Of a stretch of DNA of 64,000 nucleotides, positions 6,555 to 47,704 are shown piece by piece (position 1 is the stretch's first letter; every line of letters begins with the position of its first letter). The notes beneath the pieces were generated by a model that was not told the DNA's origin, ran no database searches, and was given only the letters and a program-made list of their open reading frames with translations. Source of the stretch: a virus (Duplodnaviria > Heunggongvirae > Uroviricota > Caudoviricetes); the IMG/VR virus record IMGVR_UViG_3300005613_000042, positions 1 to 64,000 of that record; one strand, given 5' to 3'. A program made the translations under genes and the position numbers.

Positions 6555-6580
6555 AAATAATATTCGTTAATTGGTTGGTT

Positions 6581-6620: not shown

Positions 6621-6631
6621 TAACCATAACA

Positions 6632-7672: not shown

Positions 7673-7675
7673 TCA

Positions 7676-8187: not shown

Positions 8188-8209
8188 CCGAAAAAATTGT
8201 TACTAATCA

Positions 8210-25475: not shown

Positions 25476-25520
25476 AAAAATTATCCGTATATTTATTAAT
25501 AACAAACTTAAAGAAAAACT

Positions 25521-26246
25521 ATGGGATTTTTAGATAACACTTCGCTTACCGTAGATGCTATTTTAACAAAACGCGGTAGACAACTTTTAGCACAAGGTGC
25601 TTTAAATATCACAAAATTTGCGGTATCTGATGATGAAGTTGATTACAGACTTTGGGACCAAAATCACGCAGGTGGTACTAATTTTTATGGGGAGGCTATT
25701 GAAAAACTTCCTGTTTTGGAAGCATTTGCCGATGAATCGCAAATGATGCGTCATAAGTTGATTACACTTCCACGTGGTAGTCTGAGACTTCCCGTAATTG
25801 GTATTGGTGTGAGTTCTATCAATCTTTCAACTAGCGAAACAATTACACTCAATCCACGTGTATTGAATGATTCAAGTATTGTTCAAAGTTACACATTGGT
25901 ATTAGATAACTCTAAAGTTGCAACAGTAACTCCACTTGGATTTACAGCAGAAGAAGGTGATTTACGTGGCGCTCTTAGAGGGGTAGCAGGTGGTACAAGT
26001 CCAACAATATCAACTGGTGGTACTATTGGTGACCCAAGTGATGAGAGAATTTCTATTACTAAATTTGGAGCATCTTTCCGAATCACTGGTAAATCTTTAA
26101 TTAGAACCACTACATCAACTATCACAATATTTGGAAATGATACTGGTGGTTCTGTAACTATTCCAATAACTGTATCTGCTGATTCTGGAATTGAAGGTGT
26201 GACTGTGGGTGTGGCTGCACCAGGTAGTGGAACAAGTACTTTATAA
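25521..26246 (+). CDS. structural protein (241 aa), Gly/Thr-rich
   Basis: ORF on the + strand in the structural block. Confidence 0.45.
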   Translation: MGFLDNTSLTVDAILTKRGRQLLAQGALNITKFAVSDDEVDYRLWDQNHAGGTNFYGEAIEKLPVLEAFADESQMMRHKLITLPRGSLRLPVIGIGVSSINLSTSETITLNPRVLNDSSIVQSYTLVLDNSKVATVTPLGFTAEEGDLRGALRGVAGGTSPTISTGGTIGDPSDERISITKFGASFRITGKSLIRTTTSTITIFGNDTGGSVTIPITVSADSGIEGVTVGVAAPGSGTSTL

Positions 26247-26260
26247 AATAACAAAATAAT

Positions 26261-27331: not shown

Positions 27332-27359
27332 GATAATGTAATTAAAAATGGACTAGCGA

Positions 27360-29141
27360 ATGTCTCGTATATTTAAAGGATTAATTCCAGAAACTAGAAA
27401 TGTAACTAGTCATACTGCTCATAAACGTTGGAGAATTACCAATTCTGAAACTGGAAGTTATGGTATAGTAGTTTATCAGGGTGAATACATTACTGGTTCA
27501 TTTAACACCATCAATCCAAGTTATGCCGGCACTCCTATACTCAGTACCACATCATTGGGTAAATACAAACATTTAATCCACAGGTCAATAAACCAAAACT
27601 ATTACAGTTCACCAAAAGATGTAACATATCCTTATGATAATCCACCTCGTGTTTTTTGTTTCAGAGATGGACAGTATAAAGAATTGCACAAAGATGTTAC
27701 TGTAATATCAATACCGGCTGATATATTTGGTGATACTATAAAACCTGGTTCGTTTCGCATTTTATCCGAATCTCGCGTTATAAAGGATGATGGGGTGGGT
27801 AATCTCTATGATTCAACTACTACAAGAAATCACATTCATGTTAGTGAATCATTACTTTACATAGGATTCAATGAAGGTTATCTATATCAGGATTCAAGTA
27901 AACGATTAAACATAACCCCACTTGATTATGTTAGCAAATATAAGGTAGTTCCTAGAGCATACCGAATTGGATTTGGATTACCAGAATCTGCATCATATGG
28001 TAGTTATGCTATCTTTGATGGTACTGGTAGTTATGGTAATTTCACAGTAGAAGACCCTACTGACAATCAATTTGTAGAAATTGAAAACTCACATAATTTT
28101 GATTTTGAAAAGGATTTTGCAATAACATTTAAACTACGTGTACCATCTTCCCAAGTTGTGGATGAAAGTTATGAAGGTCCATTTGAAGTTGATGGAGACC
28201 CACCATCTGCGGCAATAGTTAGTGGGTTGGCGACATCTGCTAGAAGAACATTGAAATCTCATACGGATAATGTTATTGTTACTAAACGTGAATTTAACAA
28301 CGACCATATTCCATTTGAAATTACTATAAGTGGTAGTAATGGTAGATATTTAATTATTAAACGTAAGAGTAGAAACAACGGTGAGTTATATGAGTATTCA
28401 TCTTCTGTAAAATTACAGGGCGGTGAATGGTATTCTGTTATTTTTCAAAAAACAGGAAGTAATCTAAATGTAAATCTACAAAGTTTACAGGGTAGAATAT
28501 CAGATACACAATCGGACCCGGCCCATGGACAACCGCTCAAAAATAAAACAAATATACACATTGGAGGTCGCCCATTTGGATATAAAAATAGATATTACGA
28601 TAGTTACTCGGATGCGTGGATAGATAATAAACGAAATAGAAATATCATTAGACCATTTAAAGGTGATTTGAGTGATTTTAGAATATGGGATAGAGCAATT
28701 CCAAATAATGTAACCTCTAGTTTTTTTGTAACTGAAAGTAGTATAAACCATGTTGGTAATATTTTTTATGAACATGGAATGGTTGTACTTACACCACCCA
28801 AAGGCGATGGATTCCCAACATCATTTTACCACAATATTGATACTGATGATTTTGAATTAGATTTCAAAGGGACACGCGTTGTTACAGAGCGCATTTACTT
28901 ATGTCAAATACTTGATTCTGAATTTTCAATTACTCAAAACCCAACTACATTAGAACCTACATCTGCATCACTTGGTTATATTACCAGCTCTTTAGTAGAT
29001 AATAGTTATTTTTCACCATACATCACAACAGTTGGGTTGTATAATGAATCTAACGAACTACTGGCAGTTGGAAAAATGGCAAGACCAATAAAAAAACCAA
29101 TTGATTACGATATAACATTCATGGTAAGATTTGATACATGA
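27360..29141 (+). CDS. structural protein (593 aa) with the same C-terminal domain as the 26261 gene
   Basis: C-terminus YITTVGLYNESNELLAVGKMARPIKKPIDYDITFMVRFDT. Confidence 0.5.
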   Translation: MSRIFKGLIPETRNVTSHTAHKRWRITNSETGSYGIVVYQGEYITGSFNTINPSYAGTPILSTTSLGKYKHLIHRSINQNYYSSPKDVTYPYDNPPRVFCFRDGQYKELHKDVTVISIPADIFGDTIKPGSFRILSESRVIKDDGVGNLYDSTTTRNHIHVSESLLYIGFNEGYLYQDSSKRLNITPLDYVSKYKVVPRAYRIGFGLPESASYGSYAIFDGTGSYGNFTVEDPTDNQFVEIENSHNFDFEKDFAITFKLRVPSSQVVDESYEGPFEVDGDPPSAAIVSGLATSARRTLKSHTDNVIVTKREFNNDHIPFEITISGSNGRYLIIKRKSRNNGELYEYSSSVKLQGGEWYSVIFQKTGSNLNVNLQSLQGRISDTQSDPAHGQPLKNKTNIHIGGRPFGYKNRYYDSYSDAWIDNKRNRNIIRPFKGDLSDFRIWDRAIPNNVTSSFFVTESSINHVGNIFYEHGMVVLTPPKGDGFPTSFYHNIDTDDFELDFKGTRVVTERIYLCQILDSEFSITQNPTTLEPTSASLGYITSSLVDNSYFSPYITTVGLYNESNELLAVGKMARPIKKPIDYDITFMVRFDT

Positions 29142-29806
29142 GTACTAAAAAACAAAACATAGAAAAGGTTACTCCAAAAGGTAATATACGATTTTCACTT
29201 ACACTTTCAGAGGAACAAAAACAAGCAAAAACTCAAATATTACAACACCCATTTTCATTTGTAATAGGTAAGGCTGGTAGTGGTAAAACTTTATTAGCCG
29301 TACAAGTGGCATTAGATTTGTTCTTTAAACGTGAGGTTAATAAAATAATCATGACACGTCCAACTGTATCAACTGAGGATAATGGATTTTTACCAGGTAG
29401 TGAAAAGGAAAAGATGAATCCGTGGTTGGTTCCAATTAAAAGCAATATGAGAAAGGTTTATAATAAACCTGAAATATTGGATAAATTAGAATCTAGTGAG
29501 GATATTGAGTTGGTTTCTCTTGCTCATTTTAGAGGCCGGACATTTGAAAATGCCGTTTGTATTGTTGATGAGTTTCAAAACTTAACTAAATCCCAACTAA
29601 AAATGTGTGTGGGTAGATTGGGTAAAAATAGTTTGATGATTTTTACTGGCGATTCGCAGCAGATTGACTTGAAAGATAGAAACCATTCTGCTATAAACGA
29701 ATTACCAAAGTTTCGTGATTGTGATTACGTATTTGTAACCAAACTTACAGAAAATCACAGACATGAGGCTATCAATACTGTTTTAGATATACTTTCTAAT
29801 TATTGA
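29138..29806 (+). CDS. phoH: PhoH-like ATPase
   Basis: Walker A GKAGSGKT, Walker B IVDEFQN, length 222 aa. Confidence 0.7.
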   Translation: MSTKKQNIEKVTPKGNIRFSLTLSEEQKQAKTQILQHPFSFVIGKAGSGKTLLAVQVALDLFFKREVNKIIMTRPTVSTEDNGFLPGSEKEKMNPWLVPIKSNMRKVYNKPEILDKLESSEDIELVSLAHFRGRTFENAVCIVDEFQNLTKSQLKMCVGRLGKNSLMIFTGDSQQIDLKDRNHSAINELPKFRDCDYVFVTKLTENHRHEAINTVLDILSNY

Positions 29807-30276
29807 TGGTTAATTGGTTATTTGATGATAAACCACTTGATACACCCCCAGATGGTGTTGTAGGGTTTGTTTATTTGATAACCAACAATATTACTAATAA
29901 AAAATACGTAGGTAGAAAGTATTTTGAAACCATTAGACGCGTAAAGCAAAAAAACAAACAACGTAGAAAGGTTGTCAAAAAAGAATCAAATTGGAGAGAA
30001 TATACATCATCATCGAATGAGTTGAATGATGATATTATTAAATTTGGTATCAATAATTTTAAGTTTGAAATACTACAGTTTGGAAATACTCGTGGTGAGG
30101 TTAACTATTTAGAAGAGAATTTACAACATAAGTTTGATGTACTTACTAGAGTTTTAGCAAATGGTGAATTTGAATTTTATAACAGTGCTATAGGTAGTAG
30201 AAAGTTTTTAGGTACTAAACACACACCACCTGAAAAACAAATCATTTCTGAGATTGTTAGAAAAAGATTTGGATAA
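29803..30276 (+). CDS. GIY-YIG-like nuclease domain protein
   Basis: GFVYLITNNITNKKYVGRKY (GIY...YIG...R) with downstream Glu/Asn (NYLEENL). Confidence 0.45.
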   Translation: MMVNWLFDDKPLDTPPDGVVGFVYLITNNITNKKYVGRKYFETIRRVKQKNKQRRKVVKKESNWREYTSSSNELNDDIIKFGINNFKFEILQFGNTRGEVNYLEENLQHKFDVLTRVLANGEFEFYNSAIGSRKFLGTKHTPPEKQIISEIVRKRFG

Positions 30277-30299
30277 ATCAATTATATTGAGTATATTGT

Positions 30300-31220
30300 A
30301 TGTTGATGAAAAATACATTGATTCAACTGCTAAACCAAGTTTTCAATGAACAAGGTTCTGTCAAAAATGATGAGTATCTTGTACATTGCCCATATTGTTT
30401 TCATAACAAAAAGAAACTTAGTGTAAATTTAAATACAGGTAAATATCATTGTTGGGTATGTGGTAAAGCTGGTGTAAAATTGGATACGTTGTTCTTCAAG
30501 ATGGGTGCTGATAAAATACATCTTGATAAACTACATAAAATTTTTGGAAATTCAATAGTATCTAGTAAACCTACAACCTCGGTTGAAAAAACAGTATCAT
30601 TACCCTTAGAATACATGCCAATTTGGGCTGGTTCACATCGTTCTCCAGATTATAGAAATGTAGTAAAATATCTTAAAAGAAGAAATATAGGCAAATACGA
30701 TATTCTTCGTTATAATATTGGGTATTGTGAGGATGGGCCGTATGGTGGTATGATTATATTACCATCATATGACAAAAATGGTATTTTAAATTATTTTGTG
30801 GGTCGTTCGTTTTATGATGGGGGTATGAAACACAAAAATCCAATGGTATCGAAGGATATAATTGGTAATGAACTTTTGATAAATTGGAATGAGCCTATAA
30901 ACATTGTTGAGGGTATGTTTGATGCTATAGCAGTTGGCGACAATACAATACCTCTGTTTGGTAAATTCATCCCAACATCATTGAAATTGAAGATAATTGA
31001 GGAAGGTGTAAAACGTATAAATATTCTTTTGGATGGTGATGCTATTAAACAGTCCATAGAACACGCAGAATATTTTATGAATAATGGTATATCAGTTCAT
31101 TTGATTGATATGGGGAATAAAGACCCAAGTGAACTCGGTCATCAAGTGGTTACTTCTATGATAGAAAAATCAGTTGAGTTGGATTTGTATAAAATAATGG
31201 AATTGAAATTTGAAAACTAA
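30300..31220 (+). CDS. DNA primase (CHC2-type zinc finger + TOPRIM, DnaG/T7-like)
   Basis: Zinc finger CPYCFHNKKKLSVNLNTGKYHCWVCGKAG. TOPRIM IVEGMFDAIAV ... ILLDGDAIKQ. Confidence 0.7.
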   Translation: MLMKNTLIQLLNQVFNEQGSVKNDEYLVHCPYCFHNKKKLSVNLNTGKYHCWVCGKAGVKLDTLFFKMGADKIHLDKLHKIFGNSIVSSKPTTSVEKTVSLPLEYMPIWAGSHRSPDYRNVVKYLKRRNIGKYDILRYNIGYCEDGPYGGMIILPSYDKNGILNYFVGRSFYDGGMKHKNPMVSKDIIGNELLINWNEPINIVEGMFDAIAVGDNTIPLFGKFIPTSLKLKIIEEGVKRINILLDGDAIKQSIEHAEYFMNNGISVHLIDMGNKDPSELGHQVVTSMIEKSVELDLYKIMELKFEN

Positions 31221-34200
31221 AATCATACCATATAAATTTGATAGTATTCATAAAGTACTTCATGTAAGCGATATTCACATCAGAAACTATCAACGACACA
31301 AAGAGTACATTAGTGTTTTTAAACAACTATATAAGGAAGTTGATAAGCTTCCTGAAAACTCTATAGTATATGTGGGGGGTGATGTTGTTCATAGTAAAAC
31401 TGATATTTCACCAGAACTGATTAAGGTTACAAGTGAATTTCTAAACAACTTGGCAACCCGTAGAACCACAATATTGATAACTGGAAATCATGATGCTAAT
31501 CTAAATAACCCATCTAGGTTGGATACGCTTTCACCAATTGTTGAGAGTATCAATAATCCAAATCTACATTATCTTAAAGATTCTGGAATCTATCAAATAG
31601 CAGATGTTCATTTTGTTGTATTTGGTATTTTTGATAAACCAAGTACTTACATTAAAGCAGACTCATTTGAAGCCAAAACAAAGGTTGCTTTGTTTCACGG
31701 TGCCTTGGATATGTCGGTTACAGATGTTGGATATCGAGTTTCAAATAAAGATTTACCTATTTCAATGTTTGATGGGTATGATATAGCAATGCTTGGTGAT
31801 ATTCACAAGCGACAATTTTATAATGAGCAAAAAACAATACTTCAACCGGGTTCTTTGTTGCAACAAAATCATGGAGAGTCTTATGAAAATCATGGATGTG
31901 CTATATGGGATTTAGGTACAAAATCATGTCAATTTGTTGATTTTAAAAATGAGTGGGGATTTTACACAATTGAAGTTGTTGATGGATGTTTACCAACTAT
32001 ATCAAATTTACCCAAATACCCTAGACTTAGAATCAAGACAACAAATACTACCCAAGCTGAGTTAAAAAACATCATCAGAGACATTAAAGGTATTTGTAAA
32101 CCAATCGACATTACTACAATAAAAACAGATAGAATCAGTAGTGTTGGTCAGAGTAAATCATCGCAAGCTATAACGCGAGATATACGCGATGTAAATTATC
32201 AAAATGAATTGTTACGTGAGTATATTAGTAAACATCATGGGGTTGATAGTGATACTATCAATACAATTTATGAGATAAACAAAAAATTAAATAACAATCT
32301 TAGTGGTATTGAAATCACACGTAATGTAAATTGGAAACCAAAATTATTTGAGTTTTCAAATATGTTTAGTTATGGAGCAAATAACACTATTGATTTTACC
32401 AAATCAACTGGTATTGTTGGGTTATTTGCTCCAAACCACACTGGAAAATCTGCTATACTAGATTCTCTTTCGTTTTGTTTATTTGACAAGTGCAGTCGTG
32501 GTAGAACTGCTCTTGACATCATGAATAACAAAAAATCTAATTTTCATTGTAAACTAAATTTTGAAGTTGATGGTAAAGATTACTTTATAGAACGTGTTGC
32601 CAAAAAACAAAAAAATGGAACTGTAAAAGTAAATGTAAATTTTTGGACTATTGAAAACGGTCAAACTGTTTCTTTGAATGGTGAACAACGTAGAGATACA
32701 AATAGAAACATAAAGTCTTTATTGGGTACCTATGATGATTTTGTATTAACTTCAATGTCAGTACAAAATGATAGTTCTGGATTTATTGAAAAATCACAAA
32801 CGGAACGTAAGGACTTATTGGCTCAGTTTTTAGATATTTCAATTTTTGAAGAACTTTATAATTTGGCAAGTGATGACATTCGAGATGTTACTACTTTGTT
32901 ACGTGATTTCAAAAATGTTGACTATGACCAACAATTGATTGATGAGGAAGATTTGTTAAATCGATATGAAGTTGTTCGTAATTCTAAATTGATTGAATTG
33001 AACACCATCAAATCAGAGATTGATAAAACTGATGAAATTTTATATGAATTAAACAAAAATTTAATAACAATAGATGTTGATTTAGATATTGATACCCTTA
33101 CATCTGAATTTGAAATGATTAAATCAGAAATATCTGAATATAAAGTAAAAATTGAAAAGTATAAATCATATCAAAGTGAAAATGTAGGTAAATTAGAAAA
33201 ACTTCAATCTAATTTGGAACTCATTGATATTGATAGTGTTACTAAACACTATGATAAGTGGAGAACCGCTTTAGATAAAAAACGTGAGGTTACCAACAAT
33301 ATAGAATTAATGAAAGTTGGTGTTAAATCCAAGTTGGATAATCTAAACGCTATAGGTCAGTTTGATCCAAATTGTGATTTTTGTAAAAACACTCCATTTG
33401 TTAAAAGTGCATTTGAAATTCAACAACAATTAGAATCTGACAAAAAACTAGTTGTTGAATTACTTGATACATCTAAAAAGTTAGATACTATAATTACAGA
33501 ACATTCTGGTAGTGAGGATATAATAGAAAATTATAAATCTATAAAGAATGAAATTTCAAAATACAAACAGTACCAATCAGAACTTGATGTTAAGTTAGCT
33601 AGACGAGAATCTGAATTGATTTCTCATCAATCTAAATTGGAATCTGTAAATGATAAAATTACATTGTATCATCGAAATGAAGATTCTATAAAACATAATG
33701 AATCAATAAATATTAAAATATCCGAAGCAATTGAAGTAAAGGCTAAACTACAATCTACCTTGGCTGATATTTCCGATGAATTACAAGATATTATTTCAAA
33801 TATTAAAGTTTCAAATTCAAAAATTCAAACAATTAATGAATCGATTAATAGAGCGCATACTCTCGAACTTGAGTTGAAGGCCTATGAATACTATTTGGAT
33901 GCAATTCGCCGAAATGGTATACCATACACTATTATTTCAGATGTTTTACCTTATATTGAAAATGAAGTAAATCAAACCTTATCTCAAATTGTTGATTTTA
34001 AAATAGAATTTGCTGTTGATGGTAAAAACATATTAACTTATATTGTGTATGCAGATGATGAAAAGTGGGGACTGGAGTTAACGTCTGGTATGGAAAAATT
34101 CATTAGTTCAATAGCAATAAGAGTTGCTTTGATTAATATATCAAGTTTACCGAGACCAAACTTCTTATCGATTGATGAAGGATTTGGTGCTCTTGATTAC

Positions 34201-34356
34201 CAAAATGTAACATCTCTGAGTAACTTGTTTGATTATTTAAAAAGTGAATTTGATTTCTTGTTTGTTATATCTCACATCGATATGATGCGTGATATGGTTG
34301 ATGATTTGGTTGAGATTTATAAAGAAAAGGGTTTTAGTAAAGTTATACACGTTTGA
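31210..34356 (+). CDS. fused Mre11-like nuclease + Rad50-like ATPase (SbcD-SbcC in one polypeptide)
   Basis: N-terminal phosphoesterase motifs HVSDIH, GGDVVHS, GNHD, FHGAL, GDIHK and QPGS. Then Rad50 Walker A GLFAPNHTGKSAILDSLSFCLF and a long coiled coil with CDFC zinc hook. C-terminal signature LSGMEKF, Walker B LSIDEGFGALD and H-loop VISHID. Confidence 0.75.
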   Translation: MKTKIIPYKFDSIHKVLHVSDIHIRNYQRHKEYISVFKQLYKEVDKLPENSIVYVGGDVVHSKTDISPELIKVTSEFLNNLATRRTTILITGNHDANLNNPSRLDTLSPIVESINNPNLHYLKDSGIYQIADVHFVVFGIFDKPSTYIKADSFEAKTKVALFHGALDMSVTDVGYRVSNKDLPISMFDGYDIAMLGDIHKRQFYNEQKTILQPGSLLQQNHGESYENHGCAIWDLGTKSCQFVDFKNEWGFYTIEVVDGCLPTISNLPKYPRLRIKTTNTTQAELKNIIRDIKGICKPIDITTIKTDRISSVGQSKSSQAITRDIRDVNYQNELLREYISKHHGVDSDTINTIYEINKKLNNNLSGIEITRNVNWKPKLFEFSNMFSYGANNTIDFTKSTGIVGLFAPNHTGKSAILDSLSFCLFDKCSRGRTALDIMNNKKSNFHCKLNFEVDGKDYFIERVAKKQKNGTVKVNVNFWTIENGQTVSLNGEQRRDTNRNIKSLLGTYDDFVLTSMSVQNDSSGFIEKSQTERKDLLAQFLDISIFEELYNLASDDIRDVTTLLRDFKNVDYDQQLIDEEDLLNRYEVVRNSKLIELNTIKSEIDKTDEILYELNKNLITIDVDLDIDTLTSEFEMIKSEISEYKVKIEKYKSYQSENVGKLEKLQSNLELIDIDSVTKHYDKWRTALDKKREVTNNIELMKVGVKSKLDNLNAIGQFDPNCDFCKNTPFVKSAFEIQQQLESDKKLVVELLDTSKKLDTIITEHSGSEDIIENYKSIKNEISKYKQYQSELDVKLARRESELISHQSKLESVNDKITLYHRNEDSIKHNESINIKISEAIEVKAKLQSTLADISDELQDIISNIKVSNSKIQTINESINRAHTLELELKAYEYYLDAIRRNGIPYTIISDVLPYIENEVNQTLSQIVDFKIEFAVDGKNILTYIVYADDEKWGLELTSGMEKFISSIAIRVALINISSLPRPNFLSIDEGFGALDYQNVTSLSNLFDYLKSEFDFLFVISHIDMMRDMVDDLVEIYKEKGFSKVIHV

Positions 34357-34380
34357 TACTTATATGATGAGAGTTATTAT

Positions 34381-37300
34381 ATGGCTAGACCTATTTTTAG
34401 ACAACAACCTAGAATAAACATATCAGAGCTGAGGATGCAGTACATATCTGCATCATACCCAGCTGAAATTACATCATCGACCGGTCAACTTAGTTACAAA
34501 TATCTAAGACAGTTACCGTTAATTGAATCAAGTGATGGTGTGTTTACCAATGATTTTGTTGGTGGTAAGCTTATCGTAGAATCTCCGCAAAACATTACAC
34601 CATCTACTGGGTCTGGCGTTATTGCAAGTGGGTATAGTACTAGATATCAAGGTACTATCACATCGGTAATTAACAACAGTTTAGCTGTAGTCTCACCTCC
34701 GTATTATTTCAAACTACTTAAAGAAAGTAATGGATACACCAATCCAATAAGTTACTACTTTTCCCCATCTAAATTTGATAGTAGTGATTATACAATTACT
34801 TATCGAAAAAACGAAAGTGGTAGTCAGATAACAAATGATATCTATCAATCATTTGTTAATGTAGAGTTGGCAGATTTGATACCTGAAAGTGGAAGGGTTT
34901 CCGCCGTTAGGTTGTTTGCTAGAAGTCAAGGATTTAAAACATTTGAACATTTATCAGATGAACCTTTACTCCCTGTAGAACTTTTTGTAAACCTAACATC
35001 AAGTACAAATGAATACGTACCAATTGGAAAAATTAAAGATACTAATCATGTAAATTTTTACTGGACATCTGAGATTGTAAATGGTAGTCTGTTTACCACT
35101 ACACAAACATATGATAAAACTGTATTAACAGATGCACTTAAAGTAGAAATTAATACCATACAAAATGCAGTATTTCCGATTGGTAGAGAAAATTTTTATG
35201 CAAAGTTTTACACCAATAATCCAATAAAGGTATATAAGAACAACGATTACATTGTAACCTTTAAATTGGCCAATGTTGGTAAGGCAGATTGGGAACATAG
35301 TAGTGCTGAAGTCAAGGGTCCTCGTTTATTATTTGCAATATCAGGTTCTGCCATAAAAAATGAAGATGGTAAACTTGGTAAGGTGTATGATGAAATCAAA
35401 TCTGATAGTGTAAACACAACAAACCCATCGATTGTAAATGGGAATGGGTTAATTTATCAAAATCAATTTGATTATAATGCCGGCGATGATGACAACATTG
35501 TACCTACTCCATTGAATGGTAGTCAATCATTTGCCATTTCTGATAATCAGTTATTGGTAAATTCTCCGGTGATAAATGATATAAGAGCTTATATTTTTAG
35601 ACCAGAAAGAGATGGGTACATCAACCCTGTATTTGCTGTAAATACTGGTATATGGTATATTTCTGATATTTCAATTAAACCCTATGTATTGGATGGTAGA
35701 ACACCAACACATACTAGAGTTAAAGCAAAGGCGCCTACATACAAACAAAATGATAGTTTAGATATTAAACTTGAATTTTTGAATGAACAGGGTGAAATAG
35801 CAAATATATCATTTTTAACATCCAGTCTACCATTTAGTGGTTCTAGTATTGCAGTATCATCTGGGGGTGGTACTAGTGGACCTGACGGTGATTGGTATGA
35901 TGGTGGTACCTATATCACTACATCTAAGGCAGTACATATTACGGCTTCGTTTGAATCGAGTGGTTCATTTACGGCAAGAGTAACGGGCGAATCGTTTAAT
36001 ATCATTGGATTACAAGATGCCAGTCAAGGTTCTTATAGTTCATTGATTATTGATAATAACGGAAAAGTTTGGAAAACTGGCTCAGTTTCTGGCGGTGGTG
36101 GTGTTGATAATGATTGGTATGATAGTGCAGCGGGATACATTACAACAAGTAATGATGTGCATATTACCGGTTCGCTTTATGTTAGTGGTTCTCAACAAAA
36201 TACTGGTTCACTATATATAAGCGGTTCGATTGAAAATGTACATTATATTGATTTTGATATCAGTCAATCAGAAGATTTAACGTATAAAAACGGTAGACTA
36301 TTTTATAACACCAATGAAGGCGCTCTTACATTTTACAATGAGGAATCTGATATTGGTCTACAAATAGGTCAAGAATTTTATATTAGGGTATATAATGATT
36401 CAAATAGTACAATAAATAATGGAACTCCAGTGTATGCATCTGGTGCGAACGGAGATAGAGTGAAAGTATGGACTGCCTCAGCCGAACCTCACTATGAACA
36501 CATTGCCACGGAGAATCACATTCTTGGATTGGCTACGCATAATATATCTCCTAAGTCGGAGGGATATGTTACAGAACTCGGTATTGTTAGGGGTATAAAT
36601 GTTGGCACTGGGTGGTCGGCCGGAGATACTATATACGTATCATCCAGTGGTGGTGAACTTACAAATATAAGACCAGACTATCCATATGAAAAAATAGAAG
36701 TTGGTATTTTGGTAAGAGACTCCCCGACTGGTAATGGGTTTATCTTTGTAAAACCAGAATCACCAGTTCACTTTGAAAATATATCAGAGTTGTCAGCATC
36801 CACTCCATATGTGAATGGACAAGTTTTCGTATATGATGAAACGGCTCAGGGTTGGACTAATAGTAATGAGTTGGTAAATATAACGGCATCTTCTATTATT
36901 GCCTCTGGTAGTTTTAGTGGCAGTTTTGTGGGGGATGGTAGTGGGTTGACTGGTATTTCTAGTGGAGATAATGATTGGTTTGATGGTGGTACTTATTTGA
37001 CTACATCAAAAGAAGTACAAATTACATCATCTGATTTGATATTATCTGATGGTAGCATTTATGGAGATACTGATGCAACTCCAATTTTAAAAGTACAAAA
37101 CAATCAATTTACATTCGTATCGAATACAGATAATGATGCTGGTGTTAAATTTTCAACATCAGATGGTCCAAATTTTGAGTTTACTGATTTAGATGGTAAT
37201 TCACTGGTAAGATTTTTCTTAAATCAAAAAGTACATTTATTTAGTGGTTCGATTTCTGCAAGTGGTGAATTAAGAGCCGGACTAGAATTAGAACCTCGTG

Positions 37301-42620: not shown

Positions 42621-43364
42621 ATGATTTCAATTTATAAATTGTTAGAGAATGTGGTATCTGAAGGTGTATATGACCCAGGTATTTTAAAAGCAATTTTTCT
42701 CGCAGGTGGTCCTGGTAGTGGTAAAAGTTATTCAGTAAACCAAATATTTGGAGTTGATAATATAATGAAGGGCACAAGTGCTCTTGGATTGAAAGTTGTC
42801 AATAGTGACCCTGCATTTGAACAACAGCTAAAAAAGGTTGGTGTTAGTCCAAAAAAATTAGGTCAAATGACTGATAAGATTTTCCAATACTACACTACAC
42901 GCCCAGATTCACCTCGTGCTAAAGCAAAACAAACGGTCAAAAAATTACGTGCTATGTATGAGTCTGGAAAATTGGGACTTATTATTGATGGTACTGGTAA
43001 AGATTATGCTAAAATTGAAAAGGACAAGAAAAGACTTGAAGAGTTGGGATATGATATCGCAATGGTATTTGTTAATACAAGTTTACAGGTAGCACTACAG
43101 AGAAATGCAAACCGTGATAGGTCATTACCTGAAGATTTGGTTGAGAAGGGATGGCTAGATGTTCAAAATAATATAGGAAAATTTCAATCTCTTTTTGGAA
43201 ATGATATGATAATAGTAGATAATAGCGAGGCCGGCGATTTCAACAAAATGCACGCAAAAAAGATTCGTGCGGCAGAAAGGTTTGTAAAATCACCAGTTAA
43301 AAACCCAATTGGTAAAAAGTGGATTGAAAATGAACTAAAATTAAGGAAAATTGATACAAAATGA
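42621..43364 (+). CDS. P-loop nucleoside/nucleotide kinase-like protein
   Basis: Walker A LAGGPGSGKSYS. LIIDGTG segment. Lies directly upstream of, and overlapping, the NMNAT-like domain gene. Confidence 0.5.
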   Translation: MISIYKLLENVVSEGVYDPGILKAIFLAGGPGSGKSYSVNQIFGVDNIMKGTSALGLKVVNSDPAFEQQLKKVGVSPKKLGQMTDKIFQYYTTRPDSPRAKAKQTVKKLRAMYESGKLGLIIDGTGKDYAKIEKDKKRLEELGYDIAMVFVNTSLQVALQRNANRDRSLPEDLVEKGWLDVQNNIGKFQSLFGNDMIIVDNSEAGDFNKMHAKKIRAAERFVKSPVKNPIGKKWIENELKLRKIDTK

Positions 43365-45661
43365 ACTTAGGCGAATATATAGCTTATCAATTATTAGAAG
43401 TAGAGTTATCTGGTGATATAAAGCACATTGTTGCATTGTATCCTGGTAGATTCCAACCAATGGGCACTCATCATGCAAAAACATATAAATGGGTTGAATC
43501 TAAATTCGGAGATGCGTGGGTTGTTACAAGTGATAAAGTTCAATTACCAAAGTCGCCTCTAAACTTCAATGAAAAGAAAAAAATTATCAACAAACACGGA
43601 ATCAGTAAAGTAGCTAAGGTAAAAAATCCATACCAAGCAGTAGAAGTATTGAGTAAATATGACCCTAAAACAACTGCGGTAGTATTCATAGTTGGTAAGA
43701 AAGACCAGGAACGCCTTGGTGGTAAATTCTTTCGACCGTGGCGCGGCGTGGCTGAAGTTGGATACCGAGATGGTGCTTATACAATGATTGCACCTCATAT
43801 ATCCTTAAACATACCTGGTGTGGGAGAAATGTCGGGCACAACGATTAGACAAGCTCTTTCTCAATCCCCTGATGGACCTGAATCTAAGAAATTATTCAAG
43901 GGTATCATGGATTGGTATGATGCTGGTATCCATAAAATGATATCTGGCAAACTAATGGTGAACGATATAATTGAAAAGTTTATAAATAACTCAGACTTTA
44001 CAGATACATTACATGAAGCCTCCGTTACTAGTATTTCTCAAGCTGGCGATGTAGATGATGGTCCACAAACTTGGTATAAAAATCAATCTTCTTATAAGAG
44101 TGCCACAAAATCTATAGCCGACCGACTTGGTATGAAAGTTCTTAATTATCTAAGTGGTGATGGTGATTTTGAAGCTGAGTTAACTAGATATCAACATATA
44201 ACTAGGTCACCCAGTACATTTCCAGCCGGCGTACAAGGTAAGACAACTACAATTAACCAAGATGACTTATCTACAAAGACGGCATATAAAGTTTGGAAAC
44301 GATATATTCAAAACATAGTTAGGTCGGTTGGTATGCAATTTCTGGATTATTTAGGAGCTGAATACTCTATAGATGTAGATGAACCAAATACAGAATTAGA
44401 TGATTTATTAGGTGAGGGTCTTTTAGTAGAGACTCCAGATGAGGATGTTGGTAAAGTTCAATGTATGGTGTGTGGGTGTATGATGAAACAAATTCAATAC
44501 AGACATTTAAAATATAGTCATAATGGTATGACTATGCCGGAATATAAAGATAAATACCCAAATGCACCACTTATATTAGACTCCGCTAAAAACACAGGTA
44601 ATAAAAATCCGATGGCTAATCCCATTGTTAGGGAAACGCATAAAAAAAGTGTAACCACAGATGAATACCGAGAAAACCAAAGAATTGGTTCTACTGGCAG
44701 AATCGCAAGCGATGAAACTAAGAAAAAAATGTCTGAAAATAATGCGATGCATTCTTCTGAAAACAGAAAAAAGGTATCGGATGGTGTTCGAAAGGCATAT
44801 GAAAAAGACCCATTATTGAGAGAAAAACGATCGGTGACTGGTAAGAAATATGGGTTTGGTAATAGTAAAACTCAAGATAAAATAGCTGAAGTTAGAGGTA
44901 GTAAACGGGGTGATGAGCGTGATGAATTTGAAAGATATCAAGAATTGGTTAGAATACTTTCAAATAAAAATTATCAAACATACTTCAAAGAAATACCAAA
45001 TGCTAAAAAGCGGAGTAGAGATTATCATTTGGACCACAAATTTTCAATATCAGAAGGATTTAGAAGAAATATTCCAGTCGAAATAATTTCTCATTATTCA
45101 AACTTTGAAATCATGCATGGTCGATTGAATGAGAGTAAGGGAACTAAATCATCAATATCATTACGAGAATTAATTTTTGATATAGAATCATCCAATCATC
45201 CAATTGGACCCCGTAATATCAAGCAATTACTCACTTGCGGTGGGGCTTACGGACACATGCGACATCCGTTCGATGACAACAATCTAACTTTTGGTGATAT
45301 AAAGAACATTATTAGATTATCTCTTCAAGGTAATCTAAGTATGGAAAAGGTAACTACTGAAAAATGTATATCTGGAGATAGTATATTATTTCTTGAAACG
45401 TTGGGGCCTACTAAAATTAAGGATGTAGTTGATGGTGATTTGGATGATGCAGTGTTAGCGTATAATAGTCAAGATGATAAAAATGAATATTTGCCCATAG
45501 TTCATAAGTTTAATAATGGGGAGGTAGATGAGTGGATTGTGATAGAGTTAGAAGATGGAAAGGAAATAAAAGTTACTCCGAATCATAAGATTTTTGTAAA
45601 GAATAAAGGATTTGTGAGAGCTGATGAATTGACAGAATATGATGAGCTTAAGATAGTTTAG
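43361..45661 (+). CDS. N-terminal half of a fractured multidomain gene: NMNAT-like HxGH nucleotidyltransferase domain + C2H2-like Zn finger + NUMOD3/HNH endonuclease module + ligase motif-I region (N-extein) + split-intein N-fragment (last 98 aa)
   Basis: GRFQPMGTHH ... SGTTIRQAL (archaeal-NMNAT-like). CMVCGC ... HNGMTMPEYKDKYP. NUMOD3-like GNKNPM repeats. HNH DYHLDHKFSISEG...N. The ORF ends ...VTTEK|CISGDSILFLE...KVTPNHKIFV...ELKIV* (intein blocks A and B). Confidence 0.6.
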   Translation: MNLGEYIAYQLLEVELSGDIKHIVALYPGRFQPMGTHHAKTYKWVESKFGDAWVVTSDKVQLPKSPLNFNEKKKIINKHGISKVAKVKNPYQAVEVLSKYDPKTTAVVFIVGKKDQERLGGKFFRPWRGVAEVGYRDGAYTMIAPHISLNIPGVGEMSGTTIRQALSQSPDGPESKKLFKGIMDWYDAGIHKMISGKLMVNDIIEKFINNSDFTDTLHEASVTSISQAGDVDDGPQTWYKNQSSYKSATKSIADRLGMKVLNYLSGDGDFEAELTRYQHITRSPSTFPAGVQGKTTTINQDDLSTKTAYKVWKRYIQNIVRSVGMQFLDYLGAEYSIDVDEPNTELDDLLGEGLLVETPDEDVGKVQCMVCGCMMKQIQYRHLKYSHNGMTMPEYKDKYPNAPLILDSAKNTGNKNPMANPIVRETHKKSVTTDEYRENQRIGSTGRIASDETKKKMSENNAMHSSENRKKVSDGVRKAYEKDPLLREKRSVTGKKYGFGNSKTQDKIAEVRGSKRGDERDEFERYQELVRILSNKNYQTYFKEIPNAKKRSRDYHLDHKFSISEGFRRNIPVEIISHYSNFEIMHGRLNESKGTKSSISLRELIFDIESSNHPIGPRNIKQLLTCGGAYGHMRHPFDDNNLTFGDIKNIIRLSLQGNLSMEKVTTEKCISGDSILFLETLGPTKIKDVVDGDLDDAVLAYNSQDDKNEYLPIVHKFNNGEVDEWIVIELEDGKEIKVTPNHKIFVKNKGFVRADELTEYDELKIV
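45365..45658 (+). mobile_element. split intein, N-terminal fragment (IntN, 98 aa)
   Basis: Block A CISGDSIL and block B TPNHKIF. The ORF stops right after the Hint N-domain. Confidence 0.65.
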
Positions 45662-45686
45662 AGTACCATCTGTTTTTTCAATAAAT

Positions 45687-46535
45687 TTGATATTTATAAG
45701 TATGATGAAAAAATGTAACTATTGTGGGGTGATTACAAACAGTATTAGTTCCCATATGCGAGATTGTTCTGATTATATATATTGGAGAGATAAAACATTT
45801 ACTAGAGAATTTCTCTATCAAGAATATGTAGAGAAAGGGAAATCAGCTATTCAAATTGCGAATGAAAATGGGTTTAGGTCGTCTAGTGCAATAAATAGAA
45901 TGCTTAAAAAGCATAATATTAACATAAGAGGAATTAGTACTTCACATAATATACCTTTGTATAAAAAAAGAATAGAACAAACTAATGTAAATAGATTCGG
46001 TGCACCGAATCCATTATGCAAAGGAACCGTTCCTTTTAAAAAAAGAAATAAAACAGTTATGGAACGGTATGGGGTAGATAATGTCAGGAAGCATCCAGAT
46101 GTTATTGCCAAGATAAAAAAGTCTTTAGCCCAGTGGAGAAATGAAAATGGACATTCTACGTTGGGATTGACACATTCATCGGAAACTAAAAATAAAATGA
46201 GAAAATCTGCTATATATAATATACAGTCTTGCGTTGGACAATTATCTCCATCTTACAATCCATCATCAATCCCCATCCTTGAATCAAAAGCAAGGGAACT
46301 TGGCATAACCGACCTTCAACATGCGGAAAATGGCGGAGAATATCACATTAAAGAACTTGGATATTGGGCGGATGGATACAGCAAAGAGAAGAATATAGTT
46401 ATTGAGTACGATGAAAAACATCATTTTGATATAGATGGAAATTTGAAAGATAAAGATAAAACGCGTCAGAGGGAAATAGAAAATTACTTGGGGTGTGAGT
46501 TCATTAGAATTAAAGCAATGGAGACTTCTTCTTGA
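45687..46535 (+). CDS. free-standing homing endonuclease-like gene lying between the intein halves
   Basis: Sits in a different frame from the flanking intein ORFs. NUMOD-like helices. C-terminal ELGYWADGYSKEKNIVIEYDEKHHFDIDGN (Vsr/EDxHD-like nuclease motif). Preceded by a TTGATATTTATAAG motif. Confidence 0.55.
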   Translation: MIFISMMKKCNYCGVITNSISSHMRDCSDYIYWRDKTFTREFLYQEYVEKGKSAIQIANENGFRSSSAINRMLKKHNINIRGISTSHNIPLYKKRIEQTNVNRFGAPNPLCKGTVPFKKRNKTVMERYGVDNVRKHPDVIAKIKKSLAQWRNENGHSTLGLTHSSETKNKMRKSAIYNIQSCVGQLSPSYNPSSIPILESKARELGITDLQHAENGGEYHIKELGYWADGYSKEKNIVIEYDEKHHFDIDGNLKDKDKTRQREIENYLGCEFIRIKAMETSS

Positions 46536-46636
46536 AAATAAAATCAATAAAAAGGGTTAAAAATGTAGAAACTTGCTATGATATACAAGTTCCTGATAGA
46601 CATTGCTATTATGCAAATGGAATATTAGTACATAAT
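46532..46636 (+). mobile_element. split intein, C-terminal fragment (IntC, 35 aa)
   Basis: Canonical ...GILVHN followed by Thr. Same reading frame as the IntN ORF. Confidence 0.65.
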
Positions 46637-47704
46637 ACGGATGGACAAAATTTATTCATCACTTGGGCTAATGGAAAATTGAGAGCCGCTCGTAACACAA
46701 GTGATTTGAAAAGGGGTGGTATGGATGTTAAGGCTGTTGCAGCTAAGTTTGCAGGTCGTGGTAATATTGAGAAAGCATTCAATTCAGCTATGAATGATTT
46801 ATCAAAAGCTATTGGTTCACTAACAGACGCTCAAAAAGAGAAGATATTCGCTAATGGCGGTAATTGGGTAAATATGGAAATTATATATCCACCATCAGCT
46901 AATGTTATTTCATATGACGCTCCATATTTACAATTCCACAATGTATTGAGTTATTCAGGTTCCACTCCAACTGGTGAGATAACAGATGGTGCCAGAATAT
47001 TAGCCGGTATGATAAAACAAGTCAATGCGAATTTGCAAAAAACCTTTTCAATAATTGGACCGAACGTATTGACGTTAAAGGGTAGTACTGATTTTTCCGA
47101 AAAACAAGATTACTTCATAAACAAAGTTAAAAAATTACAATCTGAATTTAAGTTAAGTGATACCGCAACATTATCTGAATATCATCAAGCATGGTGGGAA
47201 CGGTTTGTGGAAAAGATGTTTCCAAACATTGATAATAGGACTAAAATGGAATTAGTTACACGATGGGCTTTTGGTGACAAGAGTTTCCGTTTAAATAAAA
47301 AAAATATCACAGATGAAACCCTCTTAGCAAAAGCTATAAAATTCGATAAGCAAAATCATCAAGACCAAATCAAGAAAAATATGTTCCCATTTGAAACACT
47401 TATTTTTGAACTTGGTGTAGAGGTCTTGAAAAATGTGGAGGGTTTCTTAGCTGCAAATCCAAATAAGACTATTCAAGGTATACGAAATGCAGTTGCAAAA
47501 TCAATTAGAGATGTTCGTAAAGGTGGTGATTTGAAAAAACTAAAAAGAATAGACCAACAGTTAGCTAAAATAAAGGCTATTGGTGGTTGGAATGCGATAG
47601 TTCCATCTGAGGGAATTGTTATGGTATACAGGGGTAACACCTACAAATTGACTGGAGCCTTCGCGCCCATAAATCAAATAACCGGGTTGATGAATTTTGA
47701 TTAA
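46532..47704 (+). CDS. C-terminal half of the fractured gene: split-intein C-fragment (35 aa) + ligase-like nucleotidyltransferase C-extein
   Basis: Start MKIKSIKRVKNVETCYDIQVPDRHCYYANGILVHN|TDGQN (intein blocks F and G, +1 Thr). The predicted splice product has ...EKTDGQNLF (KxDGxN motif I). A motif-III-like NMEIIYPPSANVISY and C-terminal EGIVMVYRGNTYKLTG (motif IV/V-like) follow. Confidence 0.6.
   Translation: MKIKSIKRVKNVETCYDIQVPDRHCYYANGILVHNTDGQNLFITWANGKLRAARNTSDLKRGGMDVKAVAAKFAGRGNIEKAFNSAMNDLSKAIGSLTDAQKEKIFANGGNWVNMEIIYPPSANVISYDAPYLQFHNVLSYSGSTPTGEITDGARILAGMIKQVNANLQKTFSIIGPNVLTLKGSTDFSEKQDYFINKVKKLQSEFKLSDTATLSEYHQAWWERFVEKMFPNIDNRTKMELVTRWAFGDKSFRLNKKNITDETLLAKAIKFDKQNHQDQIKKNMFPFETLIFELGVEVLKNVEGFLAANPNKTIQGIRNAVAKSIRDVRKGGDLKKLKRIDQQLAKIKAIGGWNAIVPSEGIVMVYRGNTYKLTGAFAPINQITGLMNFD

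What the first reader, a model, noticed from the sequence alone, without database searches (positions are those of the whole stretch)
31210..34356. Mre11 and Rad50 (SbcD/SbcC; T4 gp47/gp46 equivalents) fused into one 1048-aa polypeptide
All phosphoesterase motifs of Mre11/SbcD occupy the first ~370 aa. A complete Rad50 follows directly: Walker A, long coiled coil with CxxC zinc hook, LSGxE-like signature, Walker B/D-loop and H-loop. In T4-like phages and cellular systems these are separate subunits, so the covalent fusion fixes the 1:1 stoichiometry.
Basis: seen in the sequence. Interest (0 to 1): 0.6.

Follow-up and report, generated by a model that had tools for sequence, protein, structure and literature searches.

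The report
Phage Mre11–Rad50 fusion, already described
The gene really does encode the DNA-end-processing nuclease Mre11 and its ATPase partner Rad50 as one 1048-residue protein, but this fusion type was published in 2011 (Mimivirus R555 and its abundant aquatic-virus homologs) and is common in metagenomes, so it is a correct but ordinary finding.

Summary
Observation confirmed. Window 31210..34356 (+) is one uninterrupted 1048-codon ORF. Its N-terminal ~362 residues are an Mre11/SbcD nuclease with a capping domain and a helix-loop-helix. The remaining ~670 residues are a complete Rad50/SbcC: Walker A, Q-loop, ~350-residue coiled coil with a CxxC hook, signature, Walker B, D-loop and H-loop.

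It is not a sequencing artefact. At least 120 clusters at 90% identity and 137 of the best 150 representatives of 50%-identity clusters are collinear single ORFs of 1000-1110 aa. Their catalytic residues are invariant or nearly so in both halves, and the junction length is tightly constrained at 15-21 residues.

It is not new. Yoshida, Claverie and Ogata (Virol J 2011, PMC3175470) described Mre11/Rad50 fusions in Mimivirus R555, plasmids, eukaryotes and a Bacillus phage. They reported the same motif substitutions seen here (GDxxH in motif II, Asp for His in motif V). They also found abundant marine homologs on scaffolds carrying phage primases; here a primase gene lies immediately upstream.

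The closest viral structures to my model are Mimiviridae R555-type proteins. Fused homologs also occur in Microcystis phage Mel-JY01, Xanthomonas phage XacN1 and uncultured huge phages. The window adds a full-length example in a distant T4 relative. Interest is low.

The parts
31210..34356 (+). Whole Mre11-Rad50 (R555-type) fusion ORF, 1048 codons plus stop; TTG start overlapping the primase stop by 11 nt
   Evidence: Pfam Metallophos + AAA_23/SMC_N/SbcC_Walker_B; phrog_77 6.8e-56
31210..31944 (+). Mre11/SbcD phosphoesterase core (res 1-245) with motifs I-V: D21/H23, D58/H61, N93/H94, H163, D197/H199
   Evidence: Invariant or near-invariant in 52 and 138 sequences; Pfam Metallophos 2.8e-9; TIGR00619 sbcd 2.7e-9, below its cut-off; Foldseek hits to Mre11/SbcD
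31960..32124 (+). Capping-domain-like beta/alpha module (res 251-305)
   Evidence: AF2 strands 251-257, 272-278, 300-305 and helix 282-295; profile aligns 175-296 to E. coli SbcD 200-328; ~400-column fold alignments to full-length Mre11/SbcD chains
32125..32190 (+). Flexible, poorly conserved linker (res 306-327)
   Evidence: pLDDT <50 at 307-319 and 308-323; mean column identity 0.23; length varies 19-32 among homologs
32191..32295 (+). Helix-loop-helix (res 328-362), the presumed Rad50-binding domain of Mre11
   Evidence: AF2 helices 328-342 and 347-362 with pLDDT ~87-93 in the full-length model; invariant Q331, L360, N361 and nearly invariant Y330, N332, L334, I356, N357, L364; same position as the HLH of T. 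maritima Mre11 and E. coli SbcD (PMC3175470)
32296..32343 (+). Fusion junction (res 363-378) joining the HLH to the first beta-strand of Rad50
   Evidence: Length between res 362 and 379 is 15-21 (mode 17) in 138 sequences, mean identity 0.41; W375 invariant and R371 nearly invariant; T4 gp46 residue 3 aligns to residue 374
32344..32838 (+). Rad50 ATPase lobe I (res 379-543) with Walker A (407-414, nt 32428-32451) and Q-loop Q519
32839..33906 (+). Antiparallel coiled coil (res 544-899) with zinc-hook apex at 719-728; CxxC = C722/C725 (nt 33373-33384)
   Evidence: AF2 helices 544-714 and 729-899; C722 and C725 invariant in 138/138, hook region identity 0.67 against 0.28 for the coils
33907..34353 (+). 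Rad50 ATPase lobe II (res 900-1048): signature SGME 959-962 (nt 34084-34095), Walker B D989/E990, D-loop D996 (nt 34162-34197), H-loop H1022 (nt 34273-34275)
   Evidence: aligns to E. coli SbcC 950-1036
30300..31220 (+). Upstream DnaG-type primase gene, translationally overlapped with the fusion gene; conserved neighbour
   Evidence: phrog_47 4.1e-40. Same order PhoH / GIY-YIG / primase / fusion in L006, and GIY-YIG / primase / short ORF / fusion in Mel-JY01. PMC3175470 reports primases on GOS scaffolds carrying R555 homologs

Best explanation
The gene encodes a single-chain Mre11-Rad50 enzyme of the published R555 type. The order of parts is nuclease core, capping domain, flexible linker, Rad50-binding helix-loop-helix, a short conserved junction of about 17 residues, then a full Rad50 (ATPase lobe I, coiled coil of about 170 residues per arm with a CxxC zinc hook, ATPase lobe II). 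By inference from solved Mre11-Rad50/SbcCD complexes, two chains should form a homodimer equivalent to the M2R2 heterotetramer. In that model the nuclease domains dimerise, ATP sandwiches Walker A of one chain against the signature motif of the other to clamp DNA, the hooks join through zinc, and the linker lets the nuclease swing between resting and cutting positions. In this lytic, distantly T4-related myovirus the likeliest role is that of T4 gp46/gp47: processing DNA ends for recombination-dependent replication and repair, and perhaps host DNA breakdown. The gene sits in a replication-gene cluster, overlapping the primase gene. Shown by computation: the ORF, the domains, the folds, conservation of all catalytic residues, and the wide distribution of the fusion. 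Inferred: oligomeric state, cis binding of the HLH, enzymatic activity and the biological role.
For: The ORF is intact. The Mre11 fold with capping domain and HLH is supported. Rad50/SbcC identity is supported. Catalytic residues are invariant or near-invariant in both halves across 138 sequences, each representing a distinct 50%-identity cluster, and the junction length is constrained. 120/120 best 90%-identity clusters and 137 of the best 150 representatives of 50%-identity clusters are collinear proteins of 1000-1110 aa. The nearest viral structures are Mimiviridae R555-type fusions: Tupanvirus 1.6e-74 at 26% identity over 1318 columns, plus Harvfovirus, Yasminevirus, Catovirus, Klosneuvirus and Megavirus. 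The window shares R555's GDxxH and Asp-for-His206 substitutions (PMC3175470). No second Mre11 or Rad50 ORF exists in the window, and Mel-JY01's complete genome has only one matching place. Primase-fusion synteny is conserved. Only 4 loci were found in one-genome-per-species for 185,579 species, all in MAG records (three on contigs under 20 kb, one on a 76.5-kb contig), which fits a virus-borne gene.
Against: There are no experimental data for any member of this family. The T4 gp47 match is weak (hhalign E=0.015), and NCBIfam sbcd/sbcc scores fall below their curated cut-offs, so this is a non-canonical branch. The full-length model has pTM 0.45 and I could not inspect coordinates, so cis docking of the HLH on the coiled-coil base is not verified. 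No recombinase (UvsX/RecA) was found among the window ORFs I scanned, and only 64 kb of a genome I estimate at ~145 kb (from related contigs) is visible. The closest cultured capsid relative, Flavobacterium phage immuto, lacks the gene at the syntenic site, so it is not a core gene of the lineage.
Confidence: 0.88

Rival explanations
1. Artefact: two adjacent genes (SbcD-like and SbcC-like) joined by a sequencing or assembly error that removed a stop/start near codons 365-390.
For: Separate adjacent genes are the rule in T4, in Herelleviridae such as Bacillus phage Grass, and in Staphylococcus and Vibrio phages.
Against: Contiguous ORFs occur in 120 independent 90%-identity clusters, in 137 representatives of 50%-identity clusters from many projects, and in isolates Mel-JY01 and XacN1. 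The junction is conserved in length and sequence, with W375 invariant and R371 nearly so.
Confidence: 0.01
2. The protein is not the phage's general recombination nuclease. Instead it is a specialised weapon or counter-defence: a Lamassu/SMC-like DNA sensor-nuclease used against the host chromosome, competing phages or plasmids.
For: The best PADLOC match is a Lamassu LmuB model (1.6e-30 over residues 389-1046), and a Lamassu LmuACB structure appears among the fold hits (9hqx_B). PMC3175470 notes that cellular organisms with a fused copy usually keep canonical Mre11/Rad50, suggesting a different role there. The gene is absent from the syntenic site in phage immuto, so it is accessory.
Against: LmuB is itself a Rad50/SMC relative, so the hit reflects shared ancestry. 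Rad50/SbcC chains outrank it by fold, and phrog_77 SbcC-like scores far higher (191 bits). No LmuA/LmuC-like partner is present. The fused nuclease is Mre11, not a Lamassu effector. The gene lies in a replication cluster next to the primase gene. The window has no other MR copy, and Mel-JY01 has only one matching place.
Confidence: 0.08
3. The N-terminal domain is a degenerate or non-nuclease phosphoesterase, so the protein is effectively a Rad50-like ATPase with a structural appendage.
For: Motif V has Asp in place of the first His of GHxH, and motif II has His in place of the last Asp. Sequence matches to SbcD/Mre11 models are weak.
Against: Both substituted positions carry residues able to bind metal and are invariant or nearly so (D197 138/138, H61 136/138). 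All other ligands (D21, H23, D58, N93, H94, H163, H199) are invariant or nearly so across 138 sequences, which indicates selection on an active site. The fold matches Mre11/SbcD specifically.
Confidence: 0.03

Closest known systems
Mimivirus R555-type Mre11/Rad50 fusion proteins and their aquatic metagenomic homologs (Yoshida, Claverie & Ogata 2011, PMC3175470)
   Same: Same domain order (Mre11 then Rad50). Same GDxxH motif II and Asp-for-PfMre11-His206 in motif V. HLH retained and short linker before Rad50. Abundant in marine data. Primase genes on the same scaffolds. Mimiviridae orthologs are the best viral fold/sequence matches.
   Different: The window protein is shorter (1048 vs 1351 aa, with a shorter coiled coil). 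It sits in a tailed-phage genome with baseplate, portal, terminase and gp23-like capsid genes, not in a giant virus. Identity to the giant-virus proteins is only 16-28%. I did not align R555 itself.
Bacteriophage T4 gp47/gp46 (Mre11/Rad50)
   Same: Gene order 47 then 46. Phosphoesterase motifs II-V align in register. The gp46 N-lobe aligns at 95.5% probability, starting at the junction. CxxC hook and short coiled coil. Presumed role in recombination-dependent replication.
   Different: T4 has two polypeptides with two small ORFs between the genes. T4 has the canonical GHFH motif V and GDIFD motif II. Similarity to gp47 is marginal (E=0.015).
E. coli SbcCD / T. maritima and M. jannaschii Mre11-Rad50 (solved complexes 6s6v, 7yzo, 3qg5, 3av0)
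   Same: Fold of both halves, including capping domain, HLH, ATPase lobes and coiled coil.
   Different: Those are separate subunits assembling as M2R2. They have a canonical GHxH motif V (shown here only for T4; from PMC3175470 for P. furiosus) and an SGGE-type signature (from my knowledge of Rad50, not checked here), against GDIH and SGME here. E. coli SbcC has a much longer coiled coil.
Xanthomonas jumbo phage XacN1 ORF305 (BBA65453.1, 'recombination endonuclease subunit')
   Same: Single 1099-aa Mre11-Rad50 polypeptide in a phage.
   Different: It is an end-to-end T4-like fusion: gp47 residue 339 aligns to 351 and gp46 residue 3 to 358. It has GHFH in motif V and is as close to T4's two proteins as to the window protein. 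This is probably an independent fusion event.
Lamassu LmuB (SMC/Rad50-like defence ATPase)
   Same: Rad50-like ATPase head and coiled coil; PADLOC hit 1.6e-30.
   Different: No fused Mre11 domain in LmuB, no LmuA/LmuC partners here, and a phage replication context.

Membership tests
Mre11/SbcD nuclease | Calcineurin-like phosphoesterase motifs I-V with metal-ligand residues | tested here: met
   D21/H23, D58/H61, N93/H94, H163 and D197/H199 are invariant or near-invariant. There are two conservative ligand swaps (GDxxH, GDxH), shared with R555 (PMC3175470).
Mre11/SbcD nuclease | Mre11-specific fold: phosphoesterase core plus capping domain | tested here: met
   The top 36 PDB fold hits are all Mre11/SbcD, and other metallophosphoesterases start at E>=1e-4. 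A profile search of the PDB hits only SbcD/Mre11 among metallophosphoesterases.
Mre11/SbcD nuclease | C-terminal helix-loop-helix that binds the Rad50 coiled-coil base | tested here: inconclusive
   Two confident helices (328-342, 347-362) sit at the right position after a disordered linker and carry conserved residues.
Mre11/SbcD nuclease | Curated family score (NCBIfam TIGR00619 sbcd) | tested here: not met
   37.2 bits against a cut-off of 77.65. This is a non-canonical branch, as PMC3175470 also found by phylogeny.
Rad50/SbcC ATPase | Split ABC-type ATPase: Walker A, Q-loop, signature, Walker B, D-loop, H-loop | tested here: met
   G412-K413-S414, Q519, S959-G960-M961-E962, D989-E990, D996 and H1022 are conserved in 138 sequences.
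Rad50/SbcC ATPase | Long antiparallel coiled coil with a CxxC zinc hook at the apex | tested here: met
   AF2 helices 544-714 and 729-899; C722 and C725 invariant in 138/138.
Rad50/SbcC ATPase | Curated family score (TIGR00618 sbcc; Rad50 equivalogs) | tested here: not met
   59.7 bits against a cut-off of 478.5. Pfam AAA_23 passes (30.5 vs 27) and SMC_N is just below (37.6 vs 40).
R555-type Mre11/Rad50 fusion (PMC3175470) | [quoted passage not shown] | tested here: met
R555-type Mre11/Rad50 fusion (PMC3175470) | His replacing the third Asp of DXH..GDXXD..GNHD/E, and Asp replacing PfMre11 His206 | tested here: met
   GDVVH61 and GD197IH, compared with the paper's description.
R555-type Mre11/Rad50 fusion (PMC3175470) | Specific relatedness to Mimiviridae R555 orthologs | tested here: met
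   The best BFVD matches are Tupanvirus (1.6e-74, 26% identity, 1318 columns), Harvfovirus, Yasminevirus, Catovirus, Klosneuvirus and Megavirus. R555 itself was not available to align, and no phylogeny was made.
Lamassu LmuB | SMC-like ATPase encoded with LmuA effector and LmuC partner in a defence operon | tested here: not met
   Only the ATPase half matches. The neighbours are PhoH, GIY-YIG, primase and a 1633-aa ORF without family matches.

The most novel reading that the evidence does not exclude
The phage-borne family seen here, with at least ~135 clusters at 50% identity and virtually absent from cellular genomes, is the reservoir from which Mimiviridae acquired R555. That would be a direct phage-to-giant-virus transfer of a core DNA-repair machine. 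The family's invariant Asp-for-His (motif V) and His-for-Asp (motif II) ligand swaps would give the single-chain enzyme a metal dependence or cleavage chemistry different from canonical Mre11.
Probability: 0.2. Interest if true: 0.45.

Novelty: already known. Interest (0 to 1): 0.18.

Why it matters
The window adds little to what is already known. It does give a clean, full-length, genome-anchored example supporting the 2011 conjecture that the very abundant marine "R555-like" sequences belong to tailed phages rather than giant viruses. The family is large, diverse and well conserved, so it would be a convenient single-polypeptide model for Mre11-Rad50 biochemistry and cryo-EM, with no co-expression or stoichiometry problems. 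The family is also a repeated target of inteins and homing-endonuclease insertions.

Tried and rejected
- **Megablast of 20 kb around the gene against GenBank phages:** no match, so there is no close cultured relative at the DNA level.
- **Literature searches for 'Mre11-Rad50 fusion' and 'fused Mre11'/'fused SbcC':** the first was swamped by the term 'phage' and the second found only epitope-tagged human MRE11 papers. Searches for Mel-JY01 and for XacN1 with 'recombination endonuclease' found nothing. The relevant paper surfaced only with combined gp46/gp47/Rad50/Mre11/fusion terms.
- **Whole-model Foldseek against the PDB:** dominated by the Rad50/SMC part, so the N-terminal 378 residues had to be modelled separately.
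- **Promoter/terminator scan of 29000-35000:** no enrichment over shuffles.
- **Search for an unfused or fragmented version at the syntenic site of Flavobacterium phage immuto:** its post-primase 'exonuclease', hypothetical protein and 'NadR' ORFs have no similarity to the family profile.
- **Single tblastn piece spanning the two genes of Bacillus phage Grass:** the genes are 105 nt apart, happen to be in frame, and have an annotated terminator between them, so this is not a fusion.
- **Lamassu reading:** considered and rejected (see rivals).
Full report
**1. The observation**

The ORF listing shows a single ORF at 31210..34356 on the + strand, 1048 codons, beginning with TTG. The frame is closed three codons upstream by TGA (31204-31206). 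No other canonical start precedes motif I at codon 21, so TTG 31210 is the start. It overlaps the end of the preceding primase ORF (30300..31220) by 11 nt, which suggests translational coupling. Several homologs also have a leucine-codon start in the database (sequences printed). The region is ~28-31% GC. Stop codons would then be expected about every 12 codons, so a 1048-codon open frame cannot be chance (roughly 1e-38 by my arithmetic).

**2. What the two halves are**

- **Sequence families.** Pfam finds Metallophos at residues 15-139 (2.8e-9), and AAA_23, SMC_N and SbcC_Walker_B over 383-1042. PHROGs gives phrog_77 "SbcC-like subunit" at 6.8e-56.
- **Solved structures, single sequence.** The PDB search hits M. 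jannaschii Rad50 (6e-13) and E. coli SbcC, with weak T. maritima Mre11 matches.
- **Solved structures, family profile.** With a 52-sequence profile (A1) the PDB hits are SbcC 6s6v_C (3.4e-17), Rad50 chains, and, for the N-terminal part, only SbcD/Mre11 chains: 7dog at 1e-6, 3qg5_C at 1.6e-6, plus 4lty and 6s6v_A. No other metallophosphoesterase class appears.
- **Full-length AF2 model.** Mean pLDDT is 81.6. It shows a nuclease core (1-245), a beta/alpha capping-like module (251-305), a disordered stretch (307-319) and two confident helices (328-342, 347-362). A strand starting at 374 leads into ATPase lobe I. Two long helical arms follow (544-714 and 729-899), with the CxxC apex at 722-725, and then lobe II (904-1048).
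- **Fold searches.** The whole model finds C. thermophilum Rad50 (7zr1, 2.4e-22) and E. coli SbcC (7yzp_C, 7e-17) first. A separate model of residues 1-378 (pLDDT 79, pTM 0.71) finds 36 Mre11/SbcD chains at 5e-12 to 1.6e-8. These include full-length chains with the Rad50-binding helix-loop-helix, at about 400 aligned columns. The first non-Mre11 fold appears only at 1e-4.
- **T4 comparison.** Gene 47 precedes gene 46. gp46 aligns from its residue 3 to residue 374 of the window protein at 95.5% probability. gp47 aligns weakly (E=0.015) but with motifs II-V in register.

**3. The motifs**

In an alignment of the window protein with 137 full-length representatives of distinct 50%-identity clusters, conservation is as follows.

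| Residue(s) | Conserved in |
|---|---|
| D58, N93, H94, H163, D197, H199, G412, K413, C722, C725, G960, E962, D989, E990, H1022 | 138/138 |
| H61, Q519 | 136/138 |
| S959 | 135/138 |
| D21 | 134/138 (the rest are gaps) |
| H23, D996 | 132/138 |

Two features deviate from canonical Mre11. Motif II is GDxxH rather than GDxxD. Motif V is G-D-x-H rather than G-H-x-H; T4 gp47 has GHFH. The Rad50 signature is SGME.

Region by region, the ATPase lobes (identity 0.60-0.61), the nuclease core (0.54) and the hook (0.67) are conserved. The coiled coil (0.28) and the capping-to-HLH linker (0.23, length 19-32) are not. The HLH (0.43) and the junction (0.41) are intermediate. The junction length between residues 362 and 379 is restricted to 15-21 residues with a mode of 17, W375 is invariant and R371 is nearly so. 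The junction therefore behaves as a structurally constrained connector, not an accident.

**4. Not an artefact, and very common**

The word-indexed search returned 120 of 120 best clusters as 1043-1052-aa proteins with Metallophos plus AAA_23/SMC_N. They are 49-97% identical, many come from Tara and other marine data, and they sit on contigs up to 148 kb. The exhaustive search of 1.84 billion representatives gave 13,404 hits at E<=1e-3 and 2,545 at E<=1e-30. The best 150 (32-49% identity) are almost all collinear with query residues ~4-1047 in a single stretch.

In GenBank phages, several single ORFs span both domains:

- Microcystis phage Mel-JY01 WWT39521.1: 1066 aa, 40% identity, annotated only "AAA domain containing protein".
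- A 735-kb uncultured huge phage: 1202 aa.
- Xanthomonas jumbo phage XacN1 ORF305: 1099 aa.

XacN1's protein is an end-to-end T4-like fusion. gp47 residue 339 aligns to 351 and gp46 residue 3 to 358. It has GHFH in motif V and is about as close to T4's separate proteins as to the window protein, so fusion has probably happened more than once.

Separate adjacent genes remain the rule in T4, Herelleviridae, and Staphylococcus, Listeria and Vibrio phages. A scan of one genome per species for 185,579 bacterial and archaeal species found only four loci. All are in MAG records, three on contigs under 20 kb and one on a 76.5-kb contig. The family is therefore essentially viral.

**5. Context**

The window is one co-directional block of a tailed phage. 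It contains a baseplate wedge, large terminase, gp20-like portal, major head protein, RnlA-like ligase, PhoH, a GIY-YIG protein and a primase. The capsid protein is ~50% identical to those of Flavobacterium phage immuto, Mel-JY01 and LR756508. It is 37% identical to Rhodothermus phage RM378 and ~25% to T4-type gp23, so this is a distant T4 relative.

The order PhoH / GIY-YIG / primase / fusion recurs in a contig whose fusion protein is 62% identical, and GIY-YIG / primase / short ORF / fusion recurs in Mel-JY01. No second Mre11- or Rad50-like ORF exists in the window, and Mel-JY01's complete genome has only one matching place. Phage immuto has an unrelated exonuclease after its primase gene and no homolog in the 46 kb examined. 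No promoter or terminator signal stands out.

**6. Prior knowledge**

Yoshida, Claverie and Ogata (Virol J 2011; 8:427; PMC3175470) reported that Mimivirus R555 is an Mre11/Rad50 fusion. They found twelve more fusions: C. kluyveri plasmids, a Deferribacter megaplasmid, Anaerostipes, Ruminococcus, a moss, slime moulds, a diatom, Micromonas, and Bacillus phage 0305phi8-36.

They described the same two substitutions seen here: His for the third Asp of the DXH..GDXXD..GNHD pattern, and Asp for P. furiosus Mre11 His206. They noted that the HLH is retained and that a 9-12-residue linker fits the ~28 Å gap in the T. maritima complex. They also found 249 GOS and 288 BIOME homologs, enriched in viral fractions, on scaffolds carrying phage-like primases. 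From this they concluded that many probably come from phages, while noting that the fusion itself was confirmed for only a few long environmental sequences.

My BFVD fold search places Mimiviridae R555-type proteins as the best viral matches to the window model: Tupanvirus at 1.6e-74 with 26% identity over 1318 columns, then Harvfovirus, Yasminevirus, Terrestrivirus, Catovirus, Klosneuvirus and Megavirus. They rank ahead of the Tenacibaculum jumbo-phage proteins and a 1099-aa entry that is probably XacN1. The window protein is thus a member of that published family. A later search found only that paper and one 2019 mimivirus paper using the term.

**7. Mechanism**

This is inferred from the solved Mre11-Rad50/SbcCD structures matched, and from T4 genetics as summarised in PMC3175470. 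Two chains would form the equivalent of M2R2. ATP-driven head engagement clamps DNA, the Mre11 dimer cuts, and the CxxC hooks join through zinc. The disordered 306-327 linker supplies the freedom that the two-subunit enzymes also need, and the covalent junction simply replaces diffusion-limited assembly.

The likely role is end resection for recombination-dependent replication and repair. A defence-like or host-degrading role cannot be excluded: the ATPase half matches a Lamassu LmuB model at 1.6e-30. However, that match reflects common Rad50/SMC ancestry, and no Lamassu partners are present.

**8. Verdict**

The feature is already described in the literature and abundant in databases, so its interest is low. 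The modest added value is a full-length, phage-anchored example that supports the 2011 conjecture about the origin of the marine R555-like sequences.

Noticed in passing
window 43361-47704 (+): ORFs 43361..45661, 45687..46535, 46532..47704: The 766-aa ORF ends with the N-terminal half of an intein splicing domain (res 684-763; PF14890 5e-8, Hint). The 390-aa ORF two genes downstream begins with the C-terminal half (res 2-35, 3e-5). A free-standing 282-aa ORF (weak DUF7487) lies between them. This looks like a split-intein 'fractured gene' (I recall this arrangement from Dassa et al. 2009, from memory). ORFs of the same three sizes (770, 284, 390 aa) recur in L006.
   Followed up: partly
homologs P0170, P0183, P0214, P0228, P0270 (insertion at query residues ~75-81): Variants of the fusion protein of about 1326-1381 aa carry ~320 extra residues between motifs II and III. 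P0170 matches LAGLIDADG_3 and the intein splicing domain, and P0228 matches LAGLIDADG_3 weakly. So the nuclease domain hosts a homing-endonuclease intein in some lineages.
   Followed up: partly
L004 (LR756508.1) 3983-8208; representatives P0273, P0275, P0276, P0279, P0282: In a 484-kb uncultured phage the fusion gene is broken just after motif V (GDIHKRQ) by a 305-aa Cys-rich ORF with a TnsA-like endonuclease domain. This leaves a 243-aa N-fragment and an 861-aa C-fragment. Several ~856-aa clusters start at the same point. Contiguous relatives such as P0167 have a ~40-aa loop there, so a mobile endonuclease appears to have split the nuclease fold within a surface loop. Whether the halves reassemble is unknown.
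   Followed up: partly
window 34381-39282 (+): The 1633-aa ORF directly downstream has no PHROG match. It contains at least five copies of a ~20-residue motif (G)DNDW(F/Y)D.G.Y(L/I)TTS..V.IT.S spaced along Ser/Gly/Thr/Asn-rich sequence. It is probably a repeat-built tail fibre.
   Followed up: no
window 59321-60883 (+): A 520-aa ORF immediately after the major head protein gene matches homing/HNH endonuclease families (phrog_3339 6e-97, phrog_559 4e-79).
   Followed up: no
window 29803-30276 (+); L006 8600-9067: A GIY-YIG (SegE-like) protein gene sits between PhoH and the primase gene. It is conserved at the same position in a relative whose fusion protein is 62% identical, and a GIY-YIG gene also precedes the primase gene in Mel-JY01. 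It may therefore be a domesticated gene rather than an actively mobile one. PHROGs labels its best family 'NAD synthetase', which looks like a misnomer.
   Followed up: no
L007 (Flavobacterium phage immuto NC_055915.1) 25369-29855: At the position syntenic to the fusion gene (just after the primase gene) immuto has an unrelated 260-aa 'exonuclease', a hypothetical protein and a 907-aa 'NadR'. None matches the fusion-family profile. This may be non-orthologous replacement of the end-processing nuclease.
   Followed up: partly
L012 (Methylomonas MAG contig NZ_JALOBS010000024.1, 76.5 kb) 3001-7005: A distant fused relative (26% identity, match spanning ~1335 codons) lies on a 76-kb contig binned with a Methylomonas MAG. 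It could be a jumbo phage or giant-virus fragment.
   Followed up: no
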